Below are positions 12,995-27,347 of a DNA stretch of 64,000 bases, piece by piece. The first letter of the stretch is position 1. Every line of letters starts with the position of its first letter. The stretch comes from Gammaproteobacteria bacterium (GTDB lineage Bacteria > Pseudomonadota > Gammaproteobacteria > Pseudomonadales > Oceanobacteraceae). The notes beneath the pieces are model-generated. The model made no database searches. It was not told the origin of the DNA and saw nothing but the letters and a program-made list of their open reading frames with translations. The stretch spans positions 11,845 to 75,844 of the forward strand of contig JABXIK010000075.1 in assembly GCA_013373125.1 (NCBI GenBank), given 5' to 3'. The position numbers were made by a program, and so were the translations under genes.

Positions 12995-13828
12995 GTGTGG
13001 GTCATTGATAACCAGGATTATTTAGGCAAGCTGGATGGTTGGAATCGTTCAGCGCAATTCGCGGATGGTTTGTTTGAAACCATGCGAATTCATGATGGAA
13101 AGATTCTTGGTTTGCCTCAACATGTTGCGCGATTATCCAATGACCTTGCGCGCTTGAATATTCAACCACCGGCTGGGGATTTATCCGATTTATTATCCAG
13201 TTATGCGCACACCATGGCGGACATGTCTCACGTGGCGGATGGTGTGATGAAAGTCATCATTAGTCGTGGTGATAGTGAGCGAGGATATGGCTATCACGAT
13301 GAAATCAAACCCCATATTACGGTGTTTTATAATCAAGCTGCTCAATTACCGGATAGCGTGTACACCAAGGGAGTGGATGTTGTTTTGCTGCAAACTCAGT
13401 GCGCGATTCAGCCTCAGCTAGCGGGTATAAAACATTTGAATCGCTTAGAAAATGTACTGGCCAAAAAAGAGTTAGGCACACAAGCATTTGAAGGCTTAAT
13501 GCAAAATCATCTAGGTTTGATTATTGAAGGCGCCATGTCCAATGTGTTTTTTGAACACCAAGGGCAATTAATCACCCCTAAATTAACGCTTTCCGGCGTA
13601 GCAGGTGTCATGCGTCAGCATGTATTGGCATTTGCTGATAAACTGGGCGTCAAAATTGAAATTCGCGATATTAGTATTGATGAATTAGCTGGCTTTGAGC
13701 ATGGTTTCTTGAGCAATAGCGTCATGGGTATTGTGCCGGTTAAATCATTAATGCAGCGTGATGTGAAGATAGGAAAATTAACCATGCAGTTGTTAAAGGC
13801 ATGGCAGTCAGGAGTTATTTATGAATAA
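12995..13828 (+). CDS. pabC: Aminodeoxychorismate lyase
   Basis: DGLFETM, IKHLNRLENV and SGVAGVMR motifs; canonical position after fabF. Confidence 0.93.
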   Translation: MWVIDNQDYLGKLDGWNRSAQFADGLFETMRIHDGKILGLPQHVARLSNDLARLNIQPPAGDLSDLLSSYAHTMADMSHVADGVMKVIISRGDSERGYGYHDEIKPHITVFYNQAAQLPDSVYTKGVDVVLLQTQCAIQPQLAGIKHLNRLENVLAKKELGTQAFEGLMQNHLGLIIEGAMSNVFFEHQGQLITPKLTLSGVAGVMRQHVLAFADKLGVKIEIRDISIDELAGFEHGFLSNSVMGIVPVKSLMQRDVKIGKLTMQLLKAWQSGVIYE

Positions 13829-14840: not shown

Positions 14841-14844
14841 GTGT

Positions 14845-15465
14845 ATGAAAGGCCGTTTTATTACCATCGAAGGCATTGAAGGTGTGGGCAAAACCACCAA
14901 TATTCAATTTATTCAAGATTGGTTAACGACAAACAAAATTGAATTTATTTCCACCCGCGAACCTGGCGGCACGGAGTTGGGTGAACAACTGCGCAATTTA
15001 TTACTGCACGGTGGTCATGTATCCAATAACGCAGAATTGTTAATGATGTTTGCCGCCCGCGCTCAGCATTTAGATGAAGTGATCAAACCTGCTATTGAAT
15101 CTGGTAAATGGGTTATCTGTGATCGCTTTACGGATTCGACTTATGCTTACCAAGGTGGAGGCCGTCAGATGGATGTGGCGACCATTTCGCAGCTAGAAGC
15201 GCTGGTTCATGGTGCGTTTCAACCGCACATGACACTGTTGCTAGATGCACCGGTTGAAATTGGCCGAGCGCGTGCGGCAAAACGCGGCGCGGCGGATCGT
15301 ATCGAAGCAGAAGATTTAGCCTTTTTTAATCGCGTGCGCGATATGTTTTTAAATCGGGCTAAACAAGCCGAGCGTTTTCAAATCGTGGATGCCACGCAAG
15401 ATTTATCCAGCGTGCAACAGCAAATCCAAGTGTGTTTACAGACGTTACTCGAGTCACCTCAATGA
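14845..15465 (+). CDS. tmk: Thymidylate kinase
   Basis: FITIEGIEGVGKTT, TREPGGT and CDRF motifs; start moved to ATG 14845. Confidence 0.97.
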   Translation: MKGRFITIEGIEGVGKTTNIQFIQDWLTTNKIEFISTREPGGTELGEQLRNLLLHGGHVSNNAELLMMFAARAQHLDEVIKPAIESGKWVICDRFTDSTYAYQGGGRQMDVATISQLEALVHGAFQPHMTLLLDAPVEIGRARAAKRGAADRIEAEDLAFFNRVRDMFLNRAKQAERFQIVDATQDLSSVQQQIQVCLQTLLESPQ

Positions 15466-16469
15466 AAGTTGCCAGCGCCTTACCTTGGATCGCTCCCATC
15501 AGTGAGCAAATCTTGCAGCAATATTCCAAGCAACGATTGGGTCATGCACTTTTATTAGTGGGGCAAGAAGGTCTTGGCAAACGTGTGTATTTGCGCGAAT
15601 TGAGTCAGCTTTTGTTGTGCTCGCAATCCCAAGGAACACCCTGTGGTGAATGTTCTAGCTGCCATTTGTTTAATGCAGGCACACACCCCGATTTGCTAAT
15701 GGTGGAGCCCGAAGAAAAGGGCAAACAAATTAAAATCGAGCAGGTGCGTAAAGTCACCGAATTTGTAAATACCACTGCACAAAAAGGCCACAATAAAGTG
15801 GTTTTGCTCGGTCCGGCAGAAGCTATGAATGTGAACGCATCGAACGCGTTGCTTAAAAGCTTAGAAGAGCCCAGTGCCAATGTGACGCTATTGCTATACA
15901 GTCACCAGCCCAGTGGTTTGTTAGCCACTATCAAAAGCCGTTGTCAGCACTTTGCAGTGCATGGGCCAAGTTTCAATGACGGTTTAATCTGGTTGCAGCA
16001 AAATAGCCAGGCTCAACTAAACGATCAAACCGCTGCCAGCGTGTTAAGACTTGCAGCCAGTGCTCCGCTAAAAGCCATCGAAATGATCGAACAAGATGTG
16101 CATGTTCAATATATGCAGTTTTGTCAAAACATGGTGGACCTACAAAACCGCCAAGTGCAATGGAATGACCTATTAAGCAAATGGAAAAACTGGGATATGC
16201 AAAACATCTTACAGTGGTTTTATGGGTTACTATTGGACGCGCAGAAACAAAAAGCCGGTTTGAGTGCAGATGGCTTAGCCATGGCCGAACTAGCGGGGCA
16301 AAGCCAACAAGTGGCGCGCCAAGCTCAGTACGGCCAGATCGAACAAGCATTAACCCGACTCAGCGAAGCGCAACAAGCGTATCGCAGTCAGGCAAACCCA
16401 AATACCACCATGATGACAGAAGCCTTGCTCATTGACTGGTTGGGTTTATTGGGGCAATCTGCCCATTAA
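15462..16469 (+). CDS. holB: DNA polymerase III delta' subunit
   Basis: Zn motif CGECSSC, THPD, NALLKSLEEP and TIKSRC; start at ATG 15462 overlaps the tmk stop. Confidence 0.95.
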   Translation: MKVASALPWIAPISEQILQQYSKQRLGHALLLVGQEGLGKRVYLRELSQLLLCSQSQGTPCGECSSCHLFNAGTHPDLLMVEPEEKGKQIKIEQVRKVTEFVNTTAQKGHNKVVLLGPAEAMNVNASNALLKSLEEPSANVTLLLYSHQPSGLLATIKSRCQHFAVHGPSFNDGLIWLQQNSQAQLNDQTAASVLRLAASAPLKAIEMIEQDVHVQYMQFCQNMVDLQNRQVQWNDLLSKWKNWDMQNILQWFYGLLLDAQKQKAGLSADGLAMAELAGQSQQVARQAQYGQIEQALTRLSEAQQAYRSQANPNTTMMTEALLIDWLGLLGQSAH

Positions 16470-16500
16470 TTTGCAGTATTAGAATAATAAAGGTCTAGAT

Positions 16501-16848
16501 ATGGCGCCTAAATTAGGGCCGGGTAACGGCATTTTATCCTTAACCATCAAAGATAAGGCAGTTTTGTACGCTGCCTACATGCCATTTATCAAGCACGGTG
16601 GGTTGTTTATTCCTACCAACAAAAATTACGCCATGGGCGATGAAGTATTCATGCTTTTGAACCTAATGGACGAGCCTGAAAAAATCCCGGTGGCGGGCAA
16701 AGTGATTTGGATTACCCCAAAAGGGGCGCAAGGCAATAAAGCCGCTGGTGTGGGTGTGCAGTTTGCGGAAAACAACACAGCGCGCAATAAGATTGAAACC
16801 CATTTGGCAGGGGCGTTAAGTTCGGATCGACCGACGCATACGTTGTAA
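16501..16848 (+). CDS. pilZ: Type IV pilus assembly PilZ-domain protein
   Basis: LYAAYMPFIKHGGLFIPT...GKVIWITP; canonical position after holB. Confidence 0.95.
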   Translation: MAPKLGPGNGILSLTIKDKAVLYAAYMPFIKHGGLFIPTNKNYAMGDEVFMLLNLMDEPEKIPVAGKVIWITPKGAQGNKAAGVGVQFAENNTARNKIETHLAGALSSDRPTHTL

Positions 16849-16852
16849 ATTT

Positions 16853-16878
16853 AAAAAGCCGGTTCGCCGGCTTTTTTT
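16853..16878. terminator. Bidirectional intrinsic terminator after pilZ
   Basis: AAAAAGCCGG-TTCG-CCGGCTTTTTTT. Confidence 0.9.
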
Positions 16879-16880
16879 AT

Positions 16881-17034
16881 GGGTGAGTGAGTTCAATTTT
16901 TTAAACCGTTCGCACTGAGCAGCGAGGAACGAGCGTAGTCGAAGGGTGGCTGTCTATAAGCGCAAGTGCGTCTTACGAATAGCGTTAATTATTTGAGGTT
17001 TCGCATTTTGGATAATTAAATCCAGCACGGTTTT
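16881..17034. repeat. Copy 1 of a ~155-bp imperfect direct repeat
   Basis: Aligns to 17289-17441 at an offset of ~408 bp (shared GTTCGCACTGAGC...GCGAGGAACGAGC...GTCGAAG...CGCAAGTGCGT...GCGTTAATTATTTGAG...GCACGGTTTT). Confidence 0.95.
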
Positions 17035-17288
17035 TTCTTCTCGGGATTGCATCCCGGACCCTGCTTCGAGGCTCGCCTCACAGTGAATTAGATTGTGGTT
17101 ATGCGGCGTTCGGAGGCCGCATATTGTTATCGACTCGTGTCTGGTTGCCGGTTGGTTCTGAAACAACATTGCTTGTACGAGAGTGTCCCGCGCCCGATAA
17201 ACGGTTGTTCATTAAAACCGTTTTCCCTGAGCTAGTAGGAACCTGCACCCAGAATGCCCCGCGAACGAAGTGAGTGTTTTGGGTATGC

Positions 17289-17441
17289 GGGTGAATGTGA
17301 TTGATTTTTAAAACAGTTCGCACTGAGCGCGAGGAACGAGCAGTCGAAGTGTGGCTAATATCTAATTCGCAAGTGCGTTTTACGGATAGCGTTAATTATT
17401 TGAGTTTTCGCATCTTGGATGATTAAAGCCTGCACGGTTTT
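17289..17441. repeat. Copy 2 of the ~155-bp imperfect direct repeat
   Basis: See copy 1; overlaps the 3' half of the 51-aa ORF. Confidence 0.95.
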
Positions 17442-17510
17442 CTTATTGTATTTCAAGTACTCTGCCCACTTGATTGCCCCTTGCTGTATAAAAAAAGGAC
17501 TTTTGCCCAT
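17355..17510 (-). pseudogene. 51-aa ORF at the integron-integrase position: probable intI remnant or replacement microprotein
   Basis: Starts MGKSPF (resembles IntI N-termini) with an AAGGA RBS; lies just downstream of a LexA box and divergent from attI; no tyrosine-recombinase catalytic residues. Confidence 0.45.
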
Positions 17511-17533
17511 AATCTTTCCTTGCAGTAAAGAAT

Positions 17534-17549
17534 CTGTATAAATAAACAG
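17534..17549. promoter_or_regulatory. LexA (SOS) operator in the integrase-type promoter
   Basis: CTGT-ATAAATAA-ACAG matches CTGT-N8-ACAG exactly; LexA boxes are established features of intI promoters. Confidence 0.9.
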
Positions 17550-17806
17550 TATATTTGAGATTATGAAAGAAAATAGCAAGATGAGGCACGAAAAATCAGA
17601 AAAAAAGTTCTCATTTTTACCTATTCAATAAACGAAAAATACTTTAGATTCAATGGCTTATTAAAATCGCGTCCGAAATCATGAGACCCCATGATTTCGG
17701 ACAAAAGCGGCATGCTCATTTTTATTGGACATAATAAGACGAGAATCAGCTTTAGTGCTTATTAATCAAGCATTTATAGGGTTCTTGAAAGGTTGATTGA
17801 AAATGC

Positions 17807-17840
17807 AAAAATGAGCATGCGCACGATTAAAATGTTAAAT
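17807..17840 (+). other. attI recombination site (core GTTAAAT at 17834-17840)
   Basis: GTTAAAT is the exact reverse complement of the first cassette's inverse core ATTTAAC (18426-18432) but is not preceded by an attC hairpin; left boundary is approximate. Confidence 0.8.
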
Positions 17841-17846
17841 TTAAGT

Positions 17847-18425
17847 ATGAGAAATATGAAAAATATATTAGTTACCTTACTTTTTCTGATGTCTGTAAAA
17901 GTGACAGCTGATGTGGGAAAGCAAGCCTATGACTTAGTAAATTCAGGGGATGTGCAAAAAGCAATTGAATTGCTTTCTAAGAAAGAACATAAAGAAAAGC
18001 CTGAAGCTTTATTCATGATGGGAATGATTTACGACTCAGGAAGAGGTGTTGAAAAGGATATAGTAAAAGCCTCAAATTACTATGAGCGTGCTGCAAAGAA
18101 AGGGAATGCCGTAGCTCAATTTTATATTGGTATGTTTTATAAAGATGGTGTTGGCGTTGAAAAGGACTCGGAGAAGGCAATATATTGGCTTCGAAAAGCT
18201 TCTGAGCATAAAAATACTAGAGCGATGGGTATGTTAGCTGCATTACTAGCAGCTCCAGAAAAAGGAGATTTGATAGAGGCTTATGCATGGGCACATATCG
18301 CCGCAAAGTATGACGCAGTACAAGCCCAAACATCAGCTAGAAAAGTAATTGAACATTATTTAACGAAAGAACAGATAGCCGAAGCAAAGTTGTTAATTAA
18401 AAAAATTGAATCTAATTGGAATTAA
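17847..18425 (+). CDS. Cassette 1: secreted Sel1-like repeat (tetratricopeptide) protein
   Basis: ALFMMGMIYDSGRGVEKDIVKASNYYERAAKKG and AQFYIGMFYKDGVGVEKD Sel1 repeats; signal peptide; start moved inside the cassette. Confidence 0.9.
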   Translation: MRNMKNILVTLLFLMSVKVTADVGKQAYDLVNSGDVQKAIELLSKKEHKEKPEALFMMGMIYDSGRGVEKDIVKASNYYERAAKKGNAVAQFYIGMFYKDGVGVEKDSEKAIYWLRKASEHKNTRAMGMLAALLAAPEKGDLIEAYAWAHIAAKYDAVQAQTSARKVIEHYLTKEQIAEAKLLIKKIESNWN

Positions 18426-18486
18426 ATTTAACAAGGCGCTCAAGCAAGGACGCAGCAAAGCTGCGCCGCTTAGCTTGGCGTTATTT
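18426..18486 (+). repeat. attC1 (61 bp)
   Basis: ATTTAAC...GCTCAAGC/GCTTAGC...GTTATTT. Confidence 0.93.
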
Positions 18487-18503
18487 GGCAACTGGAATCT
18501 AGT

Positions 18504-18812
18504 ATGAGAAAAGTTATTGGTTTAATTCCAGGTATTAGCTTCTTTATATATTTCGTAGCTACGTTTGATGAAATTAAACTATCAATTTTGATGGGAGCTT
18601 TAGCTCAATCTATTGCAGTGGGTAGTATTGGGTATTTCTATTTTAATGCTCCAGCTGGAAGGCATCATACTGAAACTGCTTTCGGAATAACGGGTAAATA
18701 TAGAAACCCGATACACGGAACAATTATACCTGCCAAAACGGCAGTGATTGTCATTGCCATGATTATATTGTCCTGCATTTTAGGTCTAATTTTTAATCGC
18801 TATGGCTATTAA
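18504..18812 (+). CDS. Cassette 2: hypothetical membrane protein (about 3 TM)
   Basis: 102 aa with hydrophobic segments, between attC1 and attC2. Confidence 0.75.
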   Translation: MRKVIGLIPGISFFIYFVATFDEIKLSILMGALAQSIAVGSIGYFYFNAPAGRHHTETAFGITGKYRNPIHGTIIPAKTAVIVIAMIILSCILGLIFNRYGY

Positions 18813-18815
18813 TGC

Positions 18816-18875
18816 AAATAACAAGGCGCTTAAGCTTTGGACGTGCTCCGCACGCCGCTTAGCTTGGCGTTAACT
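18816..18875 (+). repeat. attC2 (60 bp)
   Basis: AAATAAC...GCTTAAGC/GCTTAGC...GTTAACT; very similar to attC1. Confidence 0.93.
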
Positions 18876-18896
18876 CTTCGTGCATTAAGGATAGAT

Positions 18897-19418
18897 ATGC
18901 GAATTTTCTATAGTTTATTACTTCTCTGTTTTTCTCAATTTGTACTTGCTGATTGGAAGGTCCAAGGAATTAGAATGGCCTGTGGAGATGATTTTAAGGT
19001 GCTCTCTCACAATCTAATTAACAAAGAGCCTAAAGAAGAGCTATATGAAGACATTGATGGCTCTTGGCTAGTTTTTAGAGCTCAAGAGAAAGAATTAGAA
19101 TGTAGCCTGAATGGCCTAACAATCAAAAGTAAAGTCACAGGAAAAAAGTCTTCTGCGCGAGGAGCTTGTGGCTCCGCAAAAGGAGCGAGCTTAAGTCTAA
19201 CGATTAATGGATTAGAAATTTTAAAGAATTCATTAATGAATAATGAGTGCTATCAATCAATTGATAAAATTGAAATCAGTCCTCAAAAAATTACAATTTG
19301 TGGCCATCAAGGAAATGGTAAGGCACAGGAATGCTTTGATAGCAGCTGGGAAAATATCAGTGATATGCAATTACCGCTTTCCCCATTTCCAATTAGTAAG
19401 TTAAAAAATCAAGAATGA
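18897..19418 (+). CDS. Cassette 3: secreted Cys-rich hypothetical protein
   Basis: Signal peptide MRIFYSLLLLCFSQFVLA; several Cys in the mature part; supplied start 18837 lies inside attC2. Confidence 0.8.
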   Translation: MRIFYSLLLLCFSQFVLADWKVQGIRMACGDDFKVLSHNLINKEPKEELYEDIDGSWLVFRAQEKELECSLNGLTIKSKVTGKKSSARGACGSAKGASLSLTINGLEILKNSLMNNECYQSIDKIEISPQKITICGHQGNGKAQECFDSSWENISDMQLPLSPFPISKLKNQE

Positions 19419-19521
19419 GTTAACAAGTGGCAGCAACGGACTTGCAAAAGTGTCACTCGTTTTGCCAAAAAGCCGGCAAAACCAGCGCCACTTTTGCAAG
19501 CCGCTGTGCCAGGCGTTAGCT
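19418..19521 (+). repeat. attC3 (104 bp)
   Basis: AGTTAAC...CTTGCAAAAGTG/CACTTTTGCAAG...GTTAGCT. Confidence 0.92.
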
Positions 19522-19538
19522 GTATAAAAGGATATGAT

Positions 19539-20021
19539 ATGAAATTAACACTTGGAAAAACTAGGTGGCAAAGATTTGAGAGTATTGCTCTTCTTGTTTT
19601 GATTTTCTTGGGTCTATCTGGATATGGCGTGTTTAAACATTTTGCCTCAGGAGTAACTTCCTCAGGTGAAGATTCAAAGCAATATGTAGAAGCTTATATT
19701 GCAAGTTCTCTAGAGAAAGAAATTGAGTGTAATTGGGCGGGTTATGCGCAAAGCAGAAAGACCGATCTTAAACAAGTTTTCGTTCAATGCCGTCCTCTTA
19801 ATAATATACCGGTCGAGATTAATAACGAAGAGCAATTACATAAAGCTATTGATGAGTATGTTGTCTCGCCTGCAATACACTCTTTGCCTATGGATGAGGG
19901 GCTTTCTATCGTTACGATTATGCAGATAGATAAAGCAACAGTAACTTGTAACGATATCAGGAAAGGAAAAATAGTTAACCAGTGGATAGATACCTATGAG
20001 AACTATTGCTGGCCACTTTAA
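19539..20021 (+). CDS. Cassette 4: membrane-anchored hypothetical protein
   Basis: N-terminal TM segment; start ATG 19539 after AAGGA. Confidence 0.78.
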   Translation: MKLTLGKTRWQRFESIALLVLIFLGLSGYGVFKHFASGVTSSGEDSKQYVEAYIASSLEKEIECNWAGYAQSRKTDLKQVFVQCRPLNNIPVEINNEEQLHKAIDEYVVSPAIHSLPMDEGLSIVTIMQIDKATVTCNDIRKGKIVNQWIDTYENYCWPL

Positions 20022-20024
20022 ATC

Positions 20025-20072
20025 AGCTAACAAACAAAGGCAGCGGATAAACCGCTGCTTTGGGCGTTAAAA
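20025..20072 (+). repeat. attC4, minimal 48-bp site
   Basis: AGCTAAC-AAACA-AAGGCAGC-GGATAAACC-GCTGCTT-TGGGC-GTTAAAA. Confidence 0.88.
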
Positions 20073-20077
20073 ATCGT

Positions 20078-20380
20078 ATGAATACGGAAGCGCTAAACAA
20101 AGTATTTGAAAGAGTCGCGGTAGCTTTGGAAACTGTGGAGATAGACCAATACTTTTGCGATCCACGTGGTGGGTTCTTATCAATCTTACAAGGAACACGC
20201 ATTTTCTTGCGGAGAGAGAGCTACCCAGAACAAATTGAGTCTCTGGCTAATTCACACCTAGACCAGTGTGAACTATTGCTAAGGGAAGTTACCGAAAATG
20301 GAGTATCTAGTACTTCAAAAAACGAGGCTTTCCGCCTAGCAAAACAAATTAGGGAGCAGCAGTGGGGCCAAACTTTTTAA
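20078..20380 (+). CDS. Cassette 5: hypothetical cytoplasmic protein (100 aa)
   Basis: ORF fills the cassette; stop TAA lies within R'' TTTTAAC. Confidence 0.75.
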   Translation: MNTEALNKVFERVAVALETVEIDQYFCDPRGGFLSILQGTRIFLRRESYPEQIESLANSHLDQCELLLREVTENGVSSTSKNEAFRLAKQIREQQWGQTF

Positions 20381-20518
20381 CAAGGCCAGGCAGGATGCTC
20401 CGGGCCTTCGGCCTTCCGCGGGATAGCGTACCTTGGGCACGTTTTGCGCGGGTCGCTGCGCTCCCAGTTTCGCGAAAAACGTGTACAAGGTAAGCTGCCC
20501 CTGCTGGCGGCGTTACAT
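20375..20518 (+). repeat. attC5 (144 bp, GC-rich)
   Basis: TTTTAAC...branched palindrome (TACCTTGGGCACGTTTT/AAAACGTGTACAAGGTA)...GTTACAT. Confidence 0.9.
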
Positions 20519-20533
20519 TTCTAAGGATATGCA

Positions 20534-21181
20534 GTGACCTCCGATTGGCAGGATTATATTAAGGCTAGAAAGAACGGCTTAAAAAAGCAGTGGAAAGCAC
20601 TGCTTGCAGAGAGGGTCAGTTATATTGATTCCCTTGATGCTGATAAACAAGCCGAATACTTGAATAACCTTTGCCATCATTACTTTGATCTCGGCGCGAC
20701 AGAAATTCCTATTCAGCATCCTGATATCTGGAACAAGATTCTTGAAGCTTGGAAAGTAGCTAATATTTGGGAGAATAGTATCTATCTTTTTTGGCTTGCA
20801 AAGGCATTAACTTCTACGACTGGAAGCTTCAAAGGTGCATATCTGCTATTAAATAAAGATCCTATAGATATATTGAGTAGAGTAATGGAGCTTGACTCAA
20901 ATAACTTTGAGGCAAAGAAAATCTTATTTAAGCAACACCTGCACACTTTAGATTTTGGTATGCATTCAATTGATACTGGAATGGTAATCGAAAAATATGT
21001 AGGTGATGAGGCAATCACGGAATGTGAAAAACTCATAAAAATTGAACCTAATTTAAAACATTGTAAATCTAGATTTGGTGGTGATTTCGAATACTACAAA
21101 AGCAGGTTTTTAGCTTGGTATGAATATTCGAAAGAAGATACAAAATTAGACTTCGATGATTGGTATAAACAAAAAATGTAA
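20534..21181 (+). CDS. Cassette 6: hypothetical cytoplasmic protein (215 aa, probably helical)
   Basis: GTG start 6 nt after AAGGA; stop within R'' ATGTAAC. Confidence 0.8.
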   Translation: MTSDWQDYIKARKNGLKKQWKALLAERVSYIDSLDADKQAEYLNNLCHHYFDLGATEIPIQHPDIWNKILEAWKVANIWENSIYLFWLAKALTSTTGSFKGAYLLLNKDPIDILSRVMELDSNNFEAKKILFKQHLHTLDFGMHSIDTGMVIEKYVGDEAITECEKLIKIEPNLKHCKSRFGGDFEYYKSRFLAWYEYSKEDTKLDFDDWYKQKM

Positions 21182-21247
21182 CAATACGTTGGTGTACGCC
21201 CCTTCGGGGCTGGACGGCTACGCCGCCCCACAACATTGGCGTTAGCG
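21176..21247 (+). repeat. attC6 (72 bp)
   Basis: ATGTAAC...GCCCCTTCGGGGC...GGCTACGCC...GTTAGCG. Confidence 0.92.
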
Positions 21248-21257
21248 AGTAGAACTA

Positions 21258-21677
21258 ATGAGAATGATTAGATATTTAATTGCAGTATTACTAGCTGCTT
21301 CATCTATTTGCTCCAAAGCTGAAGTATTTACACCCGTCGGTACTTTTAGTGACTTGAAATGTATTGAATCACAAGGTGATGTTCTTGGGGTTGAAATATC
21401 ATTTATCCCAGGCTTCAAAGATTCACGATATGAGTATTATGCTTTGGTTCAATTTGCGGAAGGTGTCGCAGCTAAACCAGAGTATGTACCTGTAAAAATG
21501 GTCAAGGATGAATTTTCATTTCTGGTTAATTATCTTGGATACTTTGATGTAACCGTTGAAGGTAAAATTTCAAGCGACCGCTTGATTGGTAAAATCAGCG
21601 CACCACTAAAACAAGAGATTGAATTGAAAAGACAAGTTAGCTTCTGGAATAGAGGTGGGTCTCAGTGTATTCGCTAA
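21258..21677 (+). CDS. Cassette 7: secreted hypothetical protein
   Basis: Signal peptide; stop within R'' CGCTAAC. Confidence 0.8.
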   Translation: MRMIRYLIAVLLAASSICSKAEVFTPVGTFSDLKCIESQGDVLGVEISFIPGFKDSRYEYYALVQFAEGVAAKPEYVPVKMVKDEFSFLVNYLGYFDVTVEGKISSDRLIGKISAPLKQEIELKRQVSFWNRGGSQCIR

Positions 21678-21747
21678 CAAAGCCAGCCAAAATCGCCAGC
21701 AAGCTGGCTGGACTCGTTTCACTCGCCATTGCTGGCAGGCGTTAGGT
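21672..21747 (+). repeat. attC7 (76 bp)
   Basis: CGCTAAC...GCCAGCAAGCTGGC...GTTAGGT; near-identical to attC12, similar to attC10. Confidence 0.93.
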
Positions 21748-21763
21748 TCATCAAGGAAGTCCA

Positions 21764-22564
21764 ATGCGAAGAAATCGAAATATAAGCAATATAATAGGTG
21801 GTGGACCTGCTTTAGATCTCGTTTCAACAGTTGAAAGATTTGTATATAGAACCCCTATAGATAGAAATGAAGAACTACATTTTGAAGAGTTAGATCAAGA
21901 TTTGCTTCAATATGCGCTTGATGCAGAACAAATATCTGAAAATACGGCCTTGCACAAGGTATTAAGTGATTTAGCGTACATTGACTTCTACTTATATCTT
22001 TATGATGACCTAGATTGGGTTAGTGAGTATACGGACTTTTCAGAGTATGCAATCACCATGTTTAAACATATGAATATAACTGTGCCTAGAGAGTTTAATA
22101 GAAAGTCAGCAGAAGGAATTATCGAGGCGAGAGACTTACATCGAGATTTATTTCTTTCCGGCCTGCAAACTTTTGTAAACTCAGCCTTTGCTCACTTATG
22201 GTATAGAAAAGCGTTCTTACATGATTTCAACGTTAGATTGGCAGAGAAGATCGCTCCTTTGTTAAAGTCCGACTTTCCATGTCTAGAGCAGGATGGAAGG
22301 CTGGCAAGGGCGCAGCATTTCAATAAATGGGTTCGTGATTTAATACTAAATCGAGAGGGCGGGCTTTGCCATTATTGTAGCCAGCCAGTAGCAATACCTT
22401 CGCTGCCCAACCAAACCTACGACATTGATCATATGGTTCCCATCGCACGAGGCGGAACAAATGACCCTACTAATTTGGTTTTATCATGTTCAAAATGCAA
22501 CAACAAAAAAAGAGCCAAGGTTCAATCAGTACCAGACACTTTTGCCTGGCCAGAGAGAACCTAA
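21764..22564 (+). CDS. Cassette 8: HNH endonuclease (C-terminal HNH domain)
   Basis: CHYC...DIDHMVPIARGGTNDPTNLVLSCSKCNNKK is a classic Zn-bound HNH motif. Confidence 0.9.
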   Translation: MRRNRNISNIIGGGPALDLVSTVERFVYRTPIDRNEELHFEELDQDLLQYALDAEQISENTALHKVLSDLAYIDFYLYLYDDLDWVSEYTDFSEYAITMFKHMNITVPREFNRKSAEGIIEARDLHRDLFLSGLQTFVNSAFAHLWYRKAFLHDFNVRLAEKIAPLLKSDFPCLEQDGRLARAQHFNKWVRDLILNREGGLCHYCSQPVAIPSLPNQTYDIDHMVPIARGGTNDPTNLVLSCSKCNNKKRAKVQSVPDTFAWPERT

Positions 22565-22618
22565 CAAATCAAAGCACTCGGACGCAGCAATGCTGCGCCG
22601 GTGTTTGAGGCGTTATAA
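22559..22618 (+). repeat. attC8 (60 bp)
   Basis: ACCTAAC...AAAGCACT/GGTGTTT...GTTATAA. Confidence 0.92.
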
Positions 22619-22624
22619 ATCAAC

Positions 22625-23053
22625 ATGAAAAAATTACTATTTTCTTTAATGTTTCTTTCACCTAGTTTGTATGCTTGTGAAATACCACTGGGTAAATATA
22701 TCGCGATTACAGAAACTGAGTATTCACTTGAGCTTGAACTTAAAGCTGATGGGCTTTACACGTTTTATCATAAAAATTGGCTCCCAGGAGGCCTTCATCA
22801 TGTTGGTGAAGAGCACATTTATAAAGGGTTATATGTCTGTACTGCTAATAAGCTTATTCTCGTTTACACAGACATAAGCGAAAAATTAATAGGCACATAT
22901 ATTGAGCGGTCTCTGAAAGATGAAGGTTTTCCTCTGGAGGTGGGGGAAACAAAAGTTTTAGATTTTACTGGGGCACCCGAAACAAAAAGTGTTGTCACTG
23001 GTTGGTACTATTGGCCGGAAAGCTATGTTCAAGAGGCTTCTGAAAATTTATAA
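22625..23053 (+). CDS. Cassette 9: secreted hypothetical protein
   Basis: Signal peptide MKKLLFSLMFLSPSLYA-C; stop within R''. Confidence 0.8.
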   Translation: MKKLLFSLMFLSPSLYACEIPLGKYIAITETEYSLELELKADGLYTFYHKNWLPGGLHHVGEEHIYKGLYVCTANKLILVYTDISEKLIGTYIERSLKDEGFPLEVGETKVLDFTGAPETKSVVTGWYYWPESYVQEASENL

Positions 23054-23176
23054 CAAAGCCATCATGCGTCGCCAGCAAGCTGGCTGGACAAATTTTCCTT
23101 CGTTTGTTTTGTGGCTTAACGCTACGCTACCACAAAACAATCAACTCCAAATTTGCCGCATATGGCGGCGTTATGA
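23048..23176 (+). repeat. attC9 (129 bp)
   Basis: TTATAAC...TTTGTTTTGTGG/CCACAAAACAA...GTTATGA. Confidence 0.92.
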
Positions 23177-23188
23177 GGCAGAGCTGAT

Positions 23189-23482
23189 TTGAAGCTTTTA
23201 TTTTACTTTATAAATATCGCTTTAATTTTAAGTGTGTTGGCTTGGCCATATGGCATATTAATCAGCACATTTATGTTTAGCGACCCAAGTATTACTTATA
23301 CAATTAGTCACGAAATTTTAGGTTATTGGATTATATTTTATCCCGCACTTGTCTATATCGGGAGCACTCGTTTTTTCAAAAAACGAAATATTGAACCCAT
23401 TTTAAAATTATCAGGATATACTGTCATTTCAGCCTTAGGACCTATTCCGTTTTTTATTTTGTATCTTTTAAATGTTCACTGA
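23189..23482 (+). CDS. Cassette 10: hypothetical membrane protein (about 3 TM)
   Basis: TTG start; hydrophobic segments. Confidence 0.7.
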   Translation: MKLLFYFINIALILSVLAWPYGILISTFMFSDPSITYTISHEILGYWIIFYPALVYIGSTRFFKKRNIEPILKLSGYTVISALGPIPFFILYLLNVH

Positions 23483-23516
23483 ATTTTCAGTGTACTCAGA
23501 AAATAGATTTTAAATC

Positions 23517-23590
23517 TCATAACAAAGCCAGCCAATTCGCCAGTAAGCTGGCTGGACACGTAAACTCGCCATTGCTGGCAGGCGTTAGGT
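23517..23590 (+). repeat. attC10 (74 bp)
   Basis: TCATAAC...GTTAGGT; same family as attC7 and attC12. Confidence 0.92.
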
Positions 23591-23595
23591 GAACA

Positions 23596-23898
23596 ATGGA
23601 TAATCAAGCAAAGGCGCTAGCCGCAATAAAGGAAGCTTCTGGCACGGAGTTAGGTGAATATAGTGTTGATGAATTTATTTCACACCATCTAGAGGAATTG
23701 CCAGCCGATTACTGGAAAAAGCATTTAGGTACAACCTCTCCGACTACTGAAAGTGTCATTGGGCTGCTTGTTTTACGCAGCAAGTGGGATGATTCTGAAG
23801 TATATGATTTTACTCTCCCCGAAGAGGTTACAGATTATGTTGTTAGCGTATCATTTGACGACGACGGTGAAATTGAAGATATAACAATGGAAAGTTAA
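23596..23898 (+). CDS. Cassette 11: small acidic protein, DUF2004-like
   Basis: C-terminal DFTLPEEVTDYVVSVSFDDDGEIEDITMES resembles DUF2004 as recalled from memory, not searched. Confidence 0.55.
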   Translation: MDNQAKALAAIKEASGTELGEYSVDEFISHHLEELPADYWKKHLGTTSPTTESVIGLLVLRSKWDDSEVYDFTLPEEVTDYVVSVSFDDDGEIEDITMES

Positions 23899-23902
23899 GT
23901 TC

Positions 23903-24003
23903 ACCTAACAAGTCATTTCAGCAGGACAAAAAACAGCTGGTTTTTGCTCGTGCCTCGCTAATTTTAACCAGCTATTTTGTTGCCTCTGAATGAGGCGTTA
24001 ATA
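23903..24003 (+). repeat. attC11 (101 bp)
   Basis: ACCTAAC...AGCTGGTT/AACCAGCT...GTTAATA. Confidence 0.92.
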
Positions 24004-24011
24004 GTATAAAT

Positions 24012-24437
24012 ATGATATTTACATTCCCTAAAAACGTAGCTTCAAAAGCTCAAAGTAATATCCGCTGGTTAATTTTAGTTTGGATTGTACTCTTGGGTTT
24101 CATGATAGGAACATCGCCAAAGGAACAAGGAGAGATGCCTAGTCTATTTAATGCTATATCATCAGCATTATTTAGCTTTTGGTTCTTTGTTTTATTTTCT
24201 ATAGTTATTGCCGTTTCATACTTTAAGGAAAAACCTGGAATCCCCGTGAGCTCTTTTTGGGTGCAAGTAACTAGCTCTAATTGGTACGTTAAGCTATCAA
24301 GTTCTAGCATTCTTTCATGGCTTAATAAGAAATGGAGTCAATTTGCGTATTTAATGTTTTTATTAGTATTCTACGCGATGGGTTTATTCGGATTATTTAC
24401 ACTTTTTTTCATTGTATATGGTTATTCAGAAATTTAA
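24012..24437 (+). CDS. Cassette 12: hypothetical membrane protein (about 3 TM)
   Basis: Hydrophobic segments; ORF fills the cassette. Confidence 0.75.
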   Translation: MIFTFPKNVASKAQSNIRWLILVWIVLLGFMIGTSPKEQGEMPSLFNAISSALFSFWFFVLFSIVIAVSYFKEKPGIPVSSFWVQVTSSNWYVKLSSSSILSWLNKKWSQFAYLMFLLVFYAMGLFGLFTLFFIVYGYSEI

Positions 24438-24448
24438 TTTCAAAGCAC

Positions 24449-24524
24449 TATTAACAAATCCAGCCAAAATCGCCAGCAAGCTGGCTGGACTCGTTTCACT
24501 CGCCTTTGCTGGCAAACGTTATTT
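24449..24524 (+). repeat. attC12 (76 bp)
   Basis: TATTAAC...GTTATTT; near-identical to attC7. Confidence 0.92.
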
Positions 24525-24533
24525 ATCGCGGTA

Positions 24534-25142
24534 ATGATACTCGTTAGGGTTATAGGTATGATTTATTTTCGATTTCTTCTTATTTTAGTTTTTTTTAGTG
24601 GTGTTGGTGCTTGTGCATATGGTCCAACTAATAATGTCGATTTTAATAATAAAATTAGTTTAAAAGATTTAGATGGCTCTTATGAGAATGAAATGGAAAC
24701 TACAGAAAATAACTTGAACCTATTTTCTGCATACATATGGCCATACCCCGAAAATCTACAATATAAAGAGCTTTTGGCTCTTTCAAATAAGCACAAAAAT
24801 ATAGATCTTATAAATATATCACTTTTAGGGTCTGAACTAATATTCGAAGCTATTGATAATAATTGTGTAATATTAAAGAAAAGTATCAATGTTCATTATC
24901 GATTTGAAAGTGGACAATTTAAATTAGAGTCAAGTTATAGCAATTGGAGTGAAGTTCATATAGGCCCAAAATTTAATAAGAAAACTATTGGATTGGATCT
25001 TAATGATTATGCCAAACTGAGAAGCTTAGACCGTGCTGGAGGGTTAGCATTTTGGGTTATTCCATTTGCAATATTCGAATCAAGAGATTATAGAATTAAA
25101 AGAGTTTCTGAAAAGCATTCATTCGCTGAGTGTAAAACTTAA
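24534..25142 (+). CDS. Cassette 13: putative lipoprotein
   Basis: Hydrophobic leader ending GVGA-C (lipobox-like); true start may be 24558. Confidence 0.72.
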   Translation: MILVRVIGMIYFRFLLILVFFSGVGACAYGPTNNVDFNNKISLKDLDGSYENEMETTENNLNLFSAYIWPYPENLQYKELLALSNKHKNIDLINISLLGSELIFEAIDNNCVILKKSINVHYRFESGQFKLESSYSNWSEVHIGPKFNKKTIGLDLNDYAKLRSLDRAGGLAFWVIPFAIFESRDYRIKRVSEKHSFAECKT

Positions 25143-25206
25143 ACTATTGGCATAAGTAATCGTTAATGTGTCAAGTACAAAAAGTACGCAGTATAAGCTT
25201 CAAACT

Positions 25207-25254
25207 AAATAACAAATCGTTCTTGCGGATGAACCGCAAAACTAGGCGTTAGGA
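25207..25254 (+). repeat. attC13, minimal 48-bp site
   Basis: AAATAAC-AAATC-GTTCTTGC-GGATGAACC-GCAAAAC-TAGGC-GTTAGGA. Confidence 0.9.
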
Positions 25255-25260
25255 ATACTT

Positions 25261-25602
25261 ATGTTGGATACTGAACGTTCAATATTAATTTGGTTTAGTG
25301 TTGCTATGATTCCCACTGTGATCTATTCAATAATTCAGATTGCCTTTTACAGTGGTTTAAAAAATAATTTCCCTAAGCAATGGGAGCACGCTGGCCGACC
25401 TACAATATGGTCTGACGGTAGCTGGGTCACTTCCGGTCATGTTATTGATTACCTGCGAAATGAAAAGTTTAGAGAAAGTAATGACACACTAGGTATGGAA
25501 TATTGTAGGAATAATAGAAAAGCTATGATTCTAAGTTATTGGCTATCTATATATTCATGTGGCGCATTCTTTATTTTTCTTCTTATTACTGCATATTGGT
25601 AA
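25261..25602 (+). CDS. Cassette 14: UspB-like two-TM membrane protein
   Basis: Size (113 aa), topology and the pattern LKNxxP...YL...KFR...D...C..NR...IL parallel E. coli UspB; aligned by eye. Confidence 0.55.
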   Translation: MLDTERSILIWFSVAMIPTVIYSIIQIAFYSGLKNNFPKQWEHAGRPTIWSDGSWVTSGHVIDYLRNEKFRESNDTLGMEYCRNNRKAMILSYWLSIYSCGAFFIFLLITAYW

Positions 25603-25615
25603 CACAAGTGGCTAC

Positions 25616-25699
25616 TCCTAGCAAAGCAAGGCACAACCGCACAGCGAGCTGTGCTGGACTCACTCATACTTCACTCGCCTGTGCTTGCGGGCGTTACAA
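25616..25699 (+). repeat. attC14 (84 bp) with mutated inverse core
   Basis: R'' reads TCCTAGC instead of TCCTAAC; R' is GTTACAA. Confidence 0.85.
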
Positions 25700-25705
25700 G
25701 GCACA

Positions 25706-25993
25706 ATGAAATTAAGAGCCTGAGTTCATTTGTTAACTTCATTTACCTTCATGTCTCTATTGGGGATGGAGTTTATAGCTTTTCTAATAGCTAACTTTTT
25801 CGACGGAGTATGGGTTTTAATTGTTGCGGGCCAATTGATACTTTTGACTTTAGCTGTATTTTGGATGCACAAAGTAACATCTATTAAATGTGTATCTTGT
25901 GGGAAGCCTTATGGAGTATTGATTGGTATAGAGTGCTGGCCATCCTTACCACCTAGGTGCCAAAGTTGTGGAAGTGATATGGATGCCTTGTAA
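25706..25993 (+). pseudogene. Cassette 15: membrane protein with C-terminal CxxC...CxxC; in-frame TGA at codon 6
   Basis: ATG AAA TTA AGA GCC TGA GTT CAT TTG... is in frame with the supplied ORF 25730-25993. Confidence 0.65.
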
Positions 25994-26058
25994 TAAAAAA
26001 ATGATCGCCCTAAGAGCTGGACTTCACTACGTTCGGCCCATTACTAAGGGCGCTACGA
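25988..26058 (+). repeat. attC15, degenerate terminal site (71 bp)
   Basis: R'' TTGTAAT (AAC to AAT) and R' GCTACGA (GTT to GCT); internal CACTACGTTCG module retained. Confidence 0.7.
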
Positions 26059-26066
26059 ATTAAAAC

Positions 26067-26312
26067 ATGCTTAAAAAACTAAACCAATTACTAGAATCCA
26101 TTCCATATCCGCTCTTACTGGTCATGAGTGTGTTTATGTTGATCGCGCCCATTCAGCCTGAGCCGCACTTAGTGCAAAAGTTTCATTGGTTGGTGAAGGG
26201 GTTACCGTTTAAGGCGATTGATGTGTTTGATGTGTTCTGGCACTTGTTGCCATTGTTTCTGTTAGGGTTGAAATTTTTCTTGGCTAGGCATTATCAACGG
26301 CCTCACTCTTAA
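26067..26312 (+). CDS. Small conserved-looking membrane protein
   Basis: PxxPEPHLxxK...IDVFDVFWH pattern; no downstream attC, so treated as chromosomal. Confidence 0.7.
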   Translation: MLKKLNQLLESIPYPLLLVMSVFMLIAPIQPEPHLVQKFHWLVKGLPFKAIDVFDVFWHLLPLFLLGLKFFLARHYQRPHS

Positions 26313-26324
26313 AGCGCGAGCGTA

Positions 26325-27347
26325 TTAACGTTCACGCTCACGAAATTCTCCGGGTGTCATACCCAGCCAGCTTTTAAAACTACGATGAAATGATCTTGGT
26401 TCGCTAAAACCTAAGCGCGCGGCAATGTCTTGAATAGAAAGTTCGCTGCTAATGAGTAAATGTTTGGCTTGTTCTTGGCGAACGTCATCTAAAATATTTT
26501 GGTAGCTGGTGTCATGCTGTTGCAGGCGACGTTGCATGGTGCGTTCTGACATGCCGAGACGTTTGGCCACCATTTCTTTTCGAGGGATGCCTTCTACTAA
26601 TAATCCCTTAATCACATTTTTGGTTTGCATGGGTAATGGCTGTTTGTCGCTGATGTTGGCCATTAATATGTCGGCGTGATTTTCTAGGGTTTTTAGCAGT
26701 TGTTCGTCGGGTTGGCGCATGGGTAGGGCCAGTAGTTTTTGATCAATGATCAAAGAGCTGTGGTCGCAGTTAAATTCCATGGGGCACTGAAACATGCTTT
26801 GAAATTGCAACATGGCATTGTGATCCGGTTGCGGAAATTCAAAATAGATTTTGCGGGGATTGCCGTTGGGTTTGTCGGTAAGAAAGCGGGCAAAGTTAAT
26901 CCACGAGCCCAGTACGTTGGCGATCATATGTGGGCGCACCGTTGGGTCTGGGTAGTGGCAGTGCCAACGCATTTCGATGGCGCCATCGTCTTGTGAGAGA
27001 ACTTCTGTGTGTCCCATGTCGCCCACTAAGCGCTCATAGGTGGGGGTGATCTTGATGGCTTCTTTAAGGCTTTTGCAATTCATTACCATGTAGCCTAAAA
27101 CACTGTAGGAGCCTGCTTGCACGTAGCGCGAGCTTTTTAAACCAAAGCAGGGGTCTTGTGTGGCGCGGGCTAGATAAGCCAGAACACGCTGAAACTCTTC
27201 GCCTGTGATGCGCTTTACATCATTATTTAAGACTTCCAAGCTCACGTCGTTTGCGTTGAGCACGTGGGCAGGGTCTAGCCCATAGTCGGCAGCGGCTTTT
27301 AGATATTGCAATATGGCCGGTGATGAAGCATAACCTAGGTGATTCAT
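26325..27347 (-). CDS. AraC-family regulator (long N-terminal ligand domain; GliR/PA3027-like)
   Basis: C-terminal double HTH (VAKRLGMSERTMQRRL...LGFSEPRSFHRSFKSWLGMTPGEFR); divergent from the AGPS operon. Confidence 0.92.
   Translation of the reverse strand: MNHLGYASSPAILQYLKAAADYGLDPAHVLNANDVSLEVLNNDVKRITGEEFQRVLAYLARATQDPCFGLKSSRYVQAGSYSVLGYMVMNCKSLKEAIKITPTYERLVGDMGHTEVLSQDDGAIEMRWHCHYPDPTVRPHMIANVLGSWINFARFLTDKPNGNPRKIYFEFPQPDHNAMLQFQSMFQCPMEFNCDHSSLIIDQKLLALPMRQPDEQLLKTLENHADILMANISDKQPLPMQTKNVIKGLLVEGIPRKEMVAKRLGMSERTMQRRLQQHDTSYQNILDDVRQEQAKHLLISSELSIQDIAARLGFSEPRSFHRSFKSWLGMTPGEFRERER

What the first reader, a model, noticed from the sequence alone, without database searches (positions are those of the whole stretch)
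17355..26058. Integron with attI, SOS box and 15 cassettes but no integrase at the intI position
Seen: an unbroken core/inverse-core chain from attI GTTAAAT through 15 attC sites, and a perfect LexA box where the intI promoter should be. Only ~630 bp separate the ATG at 17510 from the pilZ terminator, too short for a ~320-aa IntI, and no catalytic motifs are visible. The platform (attI, promoter, LexA box) is intact, so this is a decapitated sedentary integron rather than an anonymous attC cluster. It could be frozen, or still mobilised by an IntI encoded elsewhere. Thirteen proximal attC sites are still intact, which suggests a recent loss or activity in trans.
Basis: partly seen in the sequence, partly recalled or inferred. 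Interest (0 to 1): 0.7.

Follow-up and report, generated by a model that had tools for sequence, protein, structure and literature searches.

The report
Integron array that lost its integrase
A marine Bermanella-like bacterium carries a real integron docking site, SOS-controlled promoter and 15 gene cassettes whose integrase gene was cut off after seven codons; a sister strain keeps an intact integrase elsewhere in its genome, and sister strains carry different cassettes, so the array has probably not stood still.

Summary
The window has a genuine attI (core 17815-17836, crossover G17834|T17835), a LexA box (17534-17549) and 15 attC sites up to 26062. No integrase lies anywhere in the 64 kb.

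The attI core recurs in 49 metagenome contigs, each followed by different DNA. Close variants of it lie about 305-385 nt upstream of bona fide integron integrases in Bermanella, Oleispira, Marinomonas, Shewanella and Vibrio genomes.

Only the ribosome-binding site and codons 1-7 of intI survive here (MGKSPFF). They are base-for-base identical to an intact intI of a sister strain. Beyond codon 7, 16881-17489 is a mosaic of dispersed repeats, not a frameshifted gene. Independent assemblies reproduce the junctions, so this is not an assembly collapse.

In two sequencing runs an intI homologue sits on another contig at the same depth as the pilZ contig. It is a complete 321-aa gene in the sister strain. 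Its state in the window's own strain is unverified.

Sister strains share the truncation but almost no cassettes, so the array has turned over, most simply through IntI acting in trans.

In IntegronFinder terms this is a CALIN that keeps its attI and PintI, which is a known kind of element. About two thirds of the related attI platforms with enough upstream sequence also lack a full intI.

The parts
16501..16848 (+). pilZ, the left chromosomal flank. Its bidirectional terminator hairpin lies at 16853-16878.
   Evidence: Pfam PF07238, E=1.3e-12. The gene order yceG-tmk-holB-pilZ is shared with Bermanella MAGs.
16881..17035 (.). Repeat R, copy A. It is a dispersed REP/MITE-like module.
   Evidence: 83-91% identical to copy B. 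Homologues occur in L042, L071 (three copies) and L066. Depth is about 16-18 times single copy in runs X1 and X4. Some strains carry a 41-bp variant in place of its left 70 bp.
17036..17288 (.). Element E, a 250-nt GC-rich module rich in hairpins that lies between the two R copies.
   Evidence: Homologous pieces occur in L042, L071 and L066. Its 5' part is multi-copy by depth. No Pfam or Rfam hit. Fold z-scores are only -2.7 and -1.6.
17289..17489 (.). Repeat R, copy B, plus its extension. It abuts the intI breakpoint.
   Evidence: The unitig 17193-17519 is single copy in X1 (depth 644, no differences) and present in X4 (depth 79.5, 6 differences).
17490..17510 (-). intI remnant: start codon plus codons 2-7 (MGKSPFF). 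It now heads a 51-codon junk ORF (17355-17510).
   Evidence: The 30 nt AGGAAAGATTATGGGCAAAAGTCCTTTTTT are identical to the start of the intact intI in L168, and the two diverge after that. The ORF51 protein has no relatives. tblastn matches only codons 1-9.
17515..17556 (-). PintI region: ribosome-binding site (17515-17520), LexA box (17534-17549) and a -10-like hexamer (17548-17556).
   Evidence: About 90% identical over 139 nt to the promoter region upstream of an intact intI in L169, with an identical TACTGTTTATTTATACAG. LexA boxes lie 274-300 nt from attI in related loci.
17670..17703 (.). Conserved platform palindrome (15-bp stem, GAGACCC-type centre).
   Evidence: The same hairpin, with different but still complementary stems, occurs in related platforms.
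17785..17812 (+). Candidate cassette promoter Pc (TTGAAA-16-TG-AAAAAT).
   Evidence: Consensus scan only; inferred, not shown.
17805..17840 (+). attI core (GCAAAAATGAGCATGCGCACGATTAAAATG|TTAAAT). The crossover lies between G17834 and T17835. An inverted copy of AAAAATGAGCATGC lies at 17710-17723.
   Evidence: The 20-mer at 17815-17834 occurs in 58 metagenome contigs; in 49 of them it is followed by TT and then by unrelated sequence. The 22-mer, with up to 4 mismatches, lies 305-385 nt upstream of intI in about 38 of 80 genome loci.
17835..26062 (+). Array of 15 cassettes. attC sites: 18424-18487, 18814-18876, 19417-19522, 20024-20073, 20373-20519, 21176-21243, 21671-21748, 22559-22619, 23047-23177, 23516-23592, 23904-24004, 24448-24525, 25206-25254, 25596-25700 and 25985-26062 (degenerate).
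   Evidence: One ORF per cassette, all on the + strand. Pfam recognises only Sel1 (17847-18425) and HNH (21764-22564).
26325..27347 (-). araC-family regulator, the right chromosomal flank.
   Evidence: Pfam. The protein is identical in sister strains whose arrays differ. In Bermanella L007 the pilZ-araC interval holds other genes and no integron.

Best explanation
This is an integron cassette array with its own attI site and SOS-controlled intI promoter. Its integrase gene has been removed from codon 8 onward and replaced by dispersed REP/MITE-like repeats (R-E-R). In IntegronFinder terms it is a CALIN that keeps attI and PintI.

The likely mechanism has four steps. DNA damage releases LexA. 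An integron integrase encoded at another locus of the same genome is made. It acts in trans on this locus, excising cassettes at attC sites and inserting circles at the G|TT of this attI. The cassettes nearest attI would be read from a promoter just upstream of attI. The local PintI now drives only a 51-codon junk ORF and a repeat-filled transcript that runs to the pilZ terminator.

Shown: the identity of attI, the truncation point, the absence of intI from the window, and the turnover of the array between sister strains.

Inferred: that the intI-bearing contig belongs to the same genome, that IntI acts in trans here, the Pc promoter, and LexA binding.
For: attI. The 20-mer just 5' of the crossover recurs in 49 metagenome contigs, each followed by different sequence. 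Seven of those have a full intI starting about 320-370 nt away. That intI scores 379-389 bits on TIGR02249 'integron integrase', cutoff 265. The window ATG is 324 nt from the attI G. The same core lies upstream of intI in many Oceanospirillales, Vibrio and Shewanella genomes.

Truncation. The ribosome-binding site plus 20 nt of coding sequence are identical to the intact intI in L168 and then diverge. The promoter is about 90% identical to the one upstream of the intact intI in L169. Nothing further matches IntI.

Not an artefact. L002, L024 and L025, and X1 contigs with no differences, reproduce the junctions.

IntI elsewhere. X1 has a 52,923-nt contig at depth 662.6 and X4 a 52,541-nt contig at depth 91.6 that carry an intI homologue. 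The pilZ contigs have depths 660.7 and 92.5. The X4 protein, P0054, is 321 aa and carries both Pfam integrase domains; the R, K, H-x-x-R, H and Y catalytic residues are visible by eye in its sequence.

Turnover. X4 has the same truncation junction (17188-17520, 6 differences) and identical PilZ and AraC proteins. Its 8-cassette array shares only cassette 2 (99%) and the last cassette with the window's 15.
Against: Assignment of the intI contig to the same genome rests on equal depth in two metagenome runs, not on a closed genome.

The IntI protein of the window's own strain (X1) was not found in the protein collection, so it could be broken there.

The array differences could have arisen before intI was lost. 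They could also have come by homologous recombination of whole arrays through the conserved flanks and platform.

The platform is multi-copy: the attI-proximal 59-mer has 3.7 times single-copy depth. A short-read assembly could therefore have joined the wrong array to this platform. The pilZ...araC synteny argues against that.

Pc and LexA binding are consensus matches only.
Confidence: 0.75

Rival explanations
1. Frozen relic. The integrase was lost, nothing acts on the array any more, and it is simply decaying, as in many Xanthomonas pathovars.
For: There is no intI in the window. The last attC is degenerate. The intactness of IntI in the window's own strain could not be verified. Integrase inactivation is common in integrons generally (PMC3108266).
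Against: Fourteen attC sites still have canonical ends and folds. Strains that share the same truncation junction and differ by about 2% in the flanks have almost unrelated arrays and different first cassettes exactly at G|TTA. In Xanthomonas the pattern is the opposite: strains with the same intI lesion carry identical arrays (10.1101/2025.06.18.660453). An intact paralogous intI is present at the same depth in the sister strain.
Confidence: 0.12
2. Satellite platform made by duplication. No full intI ever stood at the pilZ locus. A copy of platform + attI (+ array) from the genome's complete integron was placed here by recombination between dispersed R/E repeats.
For: The platform is multi-copy in the same runs: the attI-proximal 59-mer has 3.7 times single-copy depth, and several large contigs start or end with the attI core at single-copy depth. 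R/E repeats, at about 16-18 copies, flank the truncated side here and in L042, L066 and L071. The 30 nt at the intI start are identical to the intact copy. No other Bermanella genome sampled has intI next to pilZ.
Against: Only 30 nt of the intact paralogue's own platform could be compared in the same strains. The 139-nt comparison (about 90%) is to another sample. It does not tell paralogous duplication from ancient loss in place. This rival changes the history of the locus, not what the locus is or how it would work.
Confidence: 0.3
3. Assembly chimera. The truncated intI stub next to pilZ is real, but it was joined to the attI and array of a different integron, one that has its integrase, through the multi-copy platform.
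For: The window is identical to contigs of a metagenome run. In that run the segment 17525-17675 is poorly covered and 17677-17833 occurs in at least four variants.
Against: The array's far end is joined to araC in three independent assemblies. In another Bermanella species, pilZ and araC lie 6.4 kb apart. L024 crosses from E through R-B, the stub and the LexA box to attI in one contig. The orientation and the single-copy depths fit.
Confidence: 0.07

Closest known systems
CALIN (cluster of attC sites lacking an integron-integrase; Cury et al. 2016, PMC4889954)
   Same: [quoted passage not shown] It is chromosomal and its cassettes are of unknown function. [quoted passage not shown]
   Different: Most CALINs (95%) have no recognisable intI remnant, and their attI status is unknown because attI could not be searched for. 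Here attI, PintI, the LexA box and seven intI codons are demonstrably kept.
Sedentary chromosomal integrons of marine Gammaproteobacteria (Vibrio cholerae superintegron type; LexA-controlled intI, PMC3108266)
   Same: Chromosomal site between core genes. intI promoter carrying a LexA box. Cassettes mostly of unknown function. Partly homogeneous attC sites. Arrays that vary strongly between strains. The family's IntI is 42-46% identical to VchIntIA and IntI1.
   Different: No integrase at the locus. Only 15 cassettes. The genome appears to hold several attI platforms.
Xanthomonas ilvD-linked integrons with inactivated intI (Gillings 2005, as cited in 10.1101/2025.06.18.660453)
   Same: A chromosomal integron whose integrase was destroyed by a deletion, with the attI side retained.
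   Different: In Xanthomonas, strains with the same lesion carry identical arrays, so the arrays are frozen. Here strains with the same lesion carry almost unrelated arrays.
pMUR050, a plasmid with two class 1 integrons whose intI1 copies are inactivated (PMC3108266)
   Same: One replicon carrying more than one integron platform, with the intI promoter regions, and in one of them a functional LexA site, kept although the intI1 genes are inactive.
   Different: That is a mobile class 1 integron on a plasmid with resistance cassettes. Here the platforms are chromosomal, environmental and scattered among core genes.

Membership tests
Complete integron | An integron-type tyrosine recombinase gene (intI) adjacent to the array | tested here: not met
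   No Pfam hit in 16850-17512. No tblastn hit in 64 kb. Only codons 1-7 remain.
Complete integron | An attI recombination site at the head of the array | tested here: met
   The core 20-mer is shared with 49 metagenome loci, each followed by a different cassette. It lies upstream of bona fide intI genes. Recombination itself was not assayed.
Complete integron | A Pc promoter reading into the cassettes | tested here: inconclusive
   One sigma-70-like match at 17785-17812. The scan finds fewer sites than its shuffles do.
CALIN | At least two attC sites on one strand | tested here: met
   15 sites with R''/R' ends and hairpin folds. Enriched over shuffles.
CALIN | No intI within 4 kb of the cluster | tested here: met
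   The nearest intI homologue is on another contig.
Sedentary chromosomal integron | A fixed chromosomal site shared by all strains of the species | tested here: met
   The same pilZ...araC site appears in assemblies from several samples. It is absent from the same interval in another Bermanella species. Only a handful of strains were sampled.
Sedentary chromosomal integron | A large array (more than 19 attC sites in Cury et al.) with homogeneous attC sites | tested here: not met
   15 attC sites. Only one sub-family of 3-4 sites is 89-100% alike. Lengths run from about 50 to 147 nt.
SOS-controlled intI promoter | A LexA box overlapping or abutting the intI -10 element | tested here: met
   CTGT-N8-ACAG at 17534-17549. 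The box is identical upstream of the intact intI in L169 and lies at an equivalent position in relatives.
SOS-controlled intI promoter | LexA binds and represses transcription | not testable with these tools
   Needs EMSA or reporter fusions.

The most novel reading that the evidence does not exclude
This bacterium, and perhaps many Oceanospirillales, may run a 'distributed integron': one SOS-controlled integrase serving several separate attI-headed cassette arrays scattered among core genes. The integrase-less platforms would be seeded or moved by a dispersed R/E repeat family and kept because they still recruit and express cassettes.

Three observations point this way. The attI core is multi-copy at single-genome depth. 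R/E repeats border the truncated side in at least four lineages. Fourteen of 21 related attI platforms with enough upstream sequence lack a full intI.
Probability: 0.3. Interest if true: 0.65.

Novelty: new member of a known kind. Interest (0 to 1): 0.42.

Why it matters
Integrase-less cassette clusters (CALINs) are about as common as complete integrons, but it is rarely possible to say where they came from or whether they are still active.

Here the origin can be read to the base: intI is cut after codon 7, and attI and the LexA-controlled promoter are kept. A natural comparison also exists, because sister strains share the same truncation but carry different arrays. That makes 'do orphan arrays still recruit cassettes at their own attI through an integrase encoded elsewhere?' directly testable.

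The strongly conserved attI core of this marine family (GCATGCGCACGATTAAAATG|TT) is also a practical search handle. With it, orphan attI platforms can be found in genomes and metagenomes, which current tools do not do.

Tried and rejected
(1) A frameshifted intI pseudogene in 16850-17510. Rejected: Pfam is empty at E up to 10, and tblastn with two classical and nine close IntIs gives only noise beyond codon 9.

(2) The 51-aa ORF as a real SOS-induced gene. It has no relatives among 5.8 billion proteins. It is best read as seven intI codons fused to repeat sequence.

(3) A structured RNA, riboswitch, group II intron or retron RNA in 16881-17441. There is no Rfam hit at gathering score, and only chance-level hits at E up to 10. 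Fold z-scores are -2.7 and -1.6.

(4) The R module as a degenerate attC, which would mean cassettes upstream of attI. DNA folds show two small local hairpins, not an attC-type bulged hairpin joining the ends.

(5) R/E as a tandem duplication. Only the 155-bp R is repeated, and depth shows R and E are dispersed, multi-copy elements.

(6) An intact intI at the same locus in sister species. Other Bermanella holB-pilZ loci have no IntI and no integron.

(7) L024 as an allele of this locus. Its left flank differs from the pilZ contig of the same sample, so it may be a paralogous copy. It was used only as evidence for the junctions and for a different cassette at G|TTA.

(8) Recovering the X1 strain's IntI protein.


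Full report
**Setting.** The window comes from a Bermanella-like gammaproteobacterium; its HolB is 92% identical to that of a Bermanella MAG. The locus sits between two sets of core genes. On the left are fabF-pabC-yceG-tmk-holB-pilZ (pilZ 16501-16848, terminator 16853-16878). On the right are an araC-family regulator (26325-27347, minus strand) and FAD oxidases. GC content falls from about 0.46 to 0.32-0.43 across 17000-26000. In another Bermanella species the pilZ...araC interval is 6.4 kb of unrelated genes with no integron.

**Checking the observation.**
- GTTAAAT lies at 17834-17840.
- A perfect CTGT-N8-ACAG lies at 17534-17549. It is the only one in 64 kb, but chance gives 0.71 per window, so its value comes from context.
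- Fifteen attC sites run from 18424 to 26062. They have TAAC...GTTA ends and lengths of about 50-147 nt, and they fold as bulged hairpins. The fifteenth is degenerate.
- A loose attC pattern finds 13 distinct sites in the array, against a mean of 3.5 per 64 kb in shuffles.
- Each cassette holds one plus-strand ORF. Pfam recognises only a Sel1-repeat protein and an HNH endonuclease, which is typical of chromosomal integrons.
- No integrase is present. Pfam finds nothing in the minus-strand frames of 16850-17512.

**Is the GTTAAAT really an attI?** The 20-mer just 5' of the crossover (GCATGCGCACGATTAAAATG, 17815-17834) was searched in the metagenome collection. About one or two chance hits were expected; 58 contigs matched. 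Nine are an unrelated coding sequence. In the other 49 the 20-mer is followed by TT, nearly always TTA, and then by sequence that differs in almost every contig. The 30-60 nt upstream fall into several diverged families. That is the signature of a conserved recombination site with variable cassettes behind it.

Seven of these contigs carry a full-length gene on the opposite strand that starts about 320-370 nt from the site. Its product scores 379-389 bits on TIGR02249 'integron integrase', cutoff 265. The window's ATG is 324 nt from the attI G. In the genome collection the same IntI family occurs in Bermanella, Oleispira, Thalassolituus, Marinomonas, Shewanella, Zobellella and Vibrio. The 22-mer, with up to 4 mismatches, lies 305-385 nt upstream of intI in about 38 of 80 of these loci. 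The window therefore has a canonical attI of a large marine integron family.

**What is left of intI.** The family's IntIs begin M-S/G/P-K-S-P-F-L/I-N. tblastn with nine of them against 16850-17600 matches only MGKSPFFIQ, and everything else is noise.

The cleanest evidence is L168, a contig of a sister strain. It begins AGGAAAGATTATGGGCAAAAGTCCTTTTTT and continues as an intact 321-aa IntI. The window's minus strand is identical over those 30 nt and then diverges completely. L169 carries an IntI from the same 90%-identity protein cluster as that one. It has 139 nt of upstream sequence that is about 90% identical to window 17511-17650, including an identical TACTGTTTATTTATACAG LexA box, the -10 region and the ribosome-binding site.

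So the promoter, LexA box, ribosome-binding site and codons 1-7 survive, and the gene is gone from codon 8. The 51-codon ORF that results has no relatives.

**What replaced it.** Positions 16881-17489 consist of two copies of a 155-bp repeat R (83-91% identical) around a 250-nt element E. None of it hits Pfam or Rfam. It does not fold like an attC, and its overall fold is only weakly better than shuffles.

Homologous R and E pieces lie on the truncated side of attI platforms in three other metagenome lineages: L042, L066 and L071, the last with about 2.3 tandem units. In the two runs that hold this organism, R/E has about 16-18 times single-copy depth and sits at the ends of many large contigs. 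R/E is therefore a dispersed REP/MITE-like repeat family, not a remnant of intI.

**Not an assembly collapse.**
- Five independent assemblies with an identical PilZ continue into the same R/E sequence. L002 covers pilZ-R-E-R.
- L024 and L025 cover E-R-stub-LexA, and L024 reaches attI.
- Run X1 contains contigs identical to window 16400-17051, 17193-17519 and 17808-19600, at depths 661, 644 and 675.
- The array's far end is joined to araC in three assemblies.
- A residual risk remains. The attI-proximal platform is multi-copy, so a mis-join across it cannot be fully excluded.

**Frozen, or served in trans?** Two lines of evidence favour trans.

First, an intI homologue lies elsewhere at the same depth. 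When X1 and X4 were laid on a Bermanella intI locus, each showed one large contig with collinear intI matches: 52,923 nt at depth 662.6 in X1, and 52,541 nt at depth 91.6 in X4. The pilZ contigs of the same runs have depths 660.7 and 92.5. The X4 gene product (P0054, NCBI NVK38967.1) is full length with both integrase domains; the catalytic residues are visible by eye in its sequence. Its contig breaks exactly where the repeated platform begins. The X1 strain's protein could not be recovered, so whether it is intact in the window's own strain is unverified.

Second, the arrays differ. X4 has the same truncation junction (17188-17520, 6 differences) and identical PilZ and AraC proteins. Its flank is 97.95% identical over 11.7 kb. 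Yet its array starts ...GATTAAAATGTTA|AGTTTCAAGG and holds 8 cassettes, among them a TIR/SEFIR and a SUKH protein. Only cassette 2 (99% identical, at a different position) and the last cassette are shared with the window's 15. L024 shows yet another sequence after G|TTA.

In Xanthomonas, by contrast, strains with the same intI lesion carry identical arrays. Two alternatives remain open: turnover before the loss of intI, and homologous replacement of whole arrays.

**Wider pattern.** Twenty-one attI-bearing metagenome loci have at least 1350 nt upstream. Seven have a full intI, three a partial one, and eleven none. The neighbouring genes differ from locus to locus (TetR/OYE, ABC-F, MazG and others), and most loci keep a LexA box. 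Collapsing near-duplicates leaves about 5 intact lineages out of 16. The sample is biased, because the search required an exact attI core.

In X1 the attI-proximal 59-mer has 3.7 times single-copy depth. In X4 at least four large single-copy contigs begin or end with the attI core. The genome therefore seems to hold several attI-headed arrays but, as far as could be seen, only one intI.

**Comparison with what is known.** By IntegronFinder's definitions this is a CALIN. Cury et al. explicitly discuss loss of intI in one of several integrons of a genome, and mobilisation of CALIN cassettes by an integrase encoded elsewhere (PMC4889954). Integrase inactivation is reported as pervasive, and LexA control as ancestral (PMC3108266).

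What is added here is modest. The truncation is resolved to the base. attI and PintI are shown to be retained. There is population evidence that such an orphan array keeps changing, and a hint of a multi-platform architecture.

**Verdict.** The element is a new member of a known kind, of moderate interest.

Noticed in passing
L025 (ENA ERZ27313075 contig), equivalent to window 17545: In another strain an ISL3-like insertion sequence has landed inside the LexA box of the same truncated platform. Its end reads GGCTCTTCCCCTGACC... and its transposase starts MDQLTLYNKILQLKAPWEV. It splits CTGTATAAATAA|.
   Followed up: partly
window 17670-17703; the equivalent place, roughly 90-200 nt upstream of the attI core, in L029, L030, L043, L066, L071, L081 and others: A palindrome with a GAGACCC-type centre is kept in the platform across the family, with different but still complementary stems: ATAACGAG/CTCGTTAT, ATTGCGAG/CTCGCAAT, and AAATCATG/CATGATTT in the window. 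It may be a protein-binding site or an insulating hairpin. Its function is unknown.
   Followed up: partly
window 16881-17489; runs X1 and X4: The R and E modules form a dispersed repeat family of about 16-18 copies per genome equivalent. They sit at many contig ends and border the integrase-less side of attI platforms in at least four lineages. No transposase was linked to them.
   Followed up: partly
L085 (sister-strain array), locus 11355-17063: The sister strain's array carries cassettes for a TIR/SEFIR-domain protein (293 aa), a SUKH/SMI1 immunity-like protein (133 aa) and a 579-aa unknown protein. The window's array has an HNH endonuclease cassette (21764-22564). These look like defence or toxin-immunity cargo, as reported for other chromosomal integrons.
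   Followed up: no
L137-L139, L142, L145, L148-L150, L152 (Advenella, Paenalcaligenes, Aphodousia, Providencia; also MAG contigs labelled Bacteroidales and Oscillospiraceae): A single attI-core variant, GCATGCTTACTAATAAAATGTT, is shared by IntI loci about 59% identical to the query in unrelated gut and soil taxa. This suggests a mobile integron of the same attI family moving between hosts.
   Followed up: no
L006, last 420 nt (Bermanella MAG, downstream of pilZ): The closest sister species has no integron after pilZ. Instead it has a REP-like hairpin, a short ORF tail and at least 10 tandem CCTTGATCG units. The motif CAAGTACTCTGNCCC just before them also occurs at window 17452-17470, next to the intI breakpoint.
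   Followed up: no
L070, about 350-500 nt upstream of the attI core: In this integrase-less platform, three tandem ~47-bp REP-like units (GCTCCATGCATGGCCCTAGTACCTACATCCTTGTAGGCAACGGCAATT) take the place of intI.
   Followed up: no
L030 / L038, 381-1637 nt upstream of the attI core, minus strand: A stop-to-stop ORF of about 419 aa and unknown function occupies the position and orientation of intI, upstream of a LexA box. These two loci have the attI subtype (AATGAGCATGC) closest to the window's.
   Followed up: no
window 26067-26312: An 81-aa ORF with no Pfam hit lies between the degenerate last attC and araC. It may be a fossil cassette that has lost its attC.
   Followed up: no
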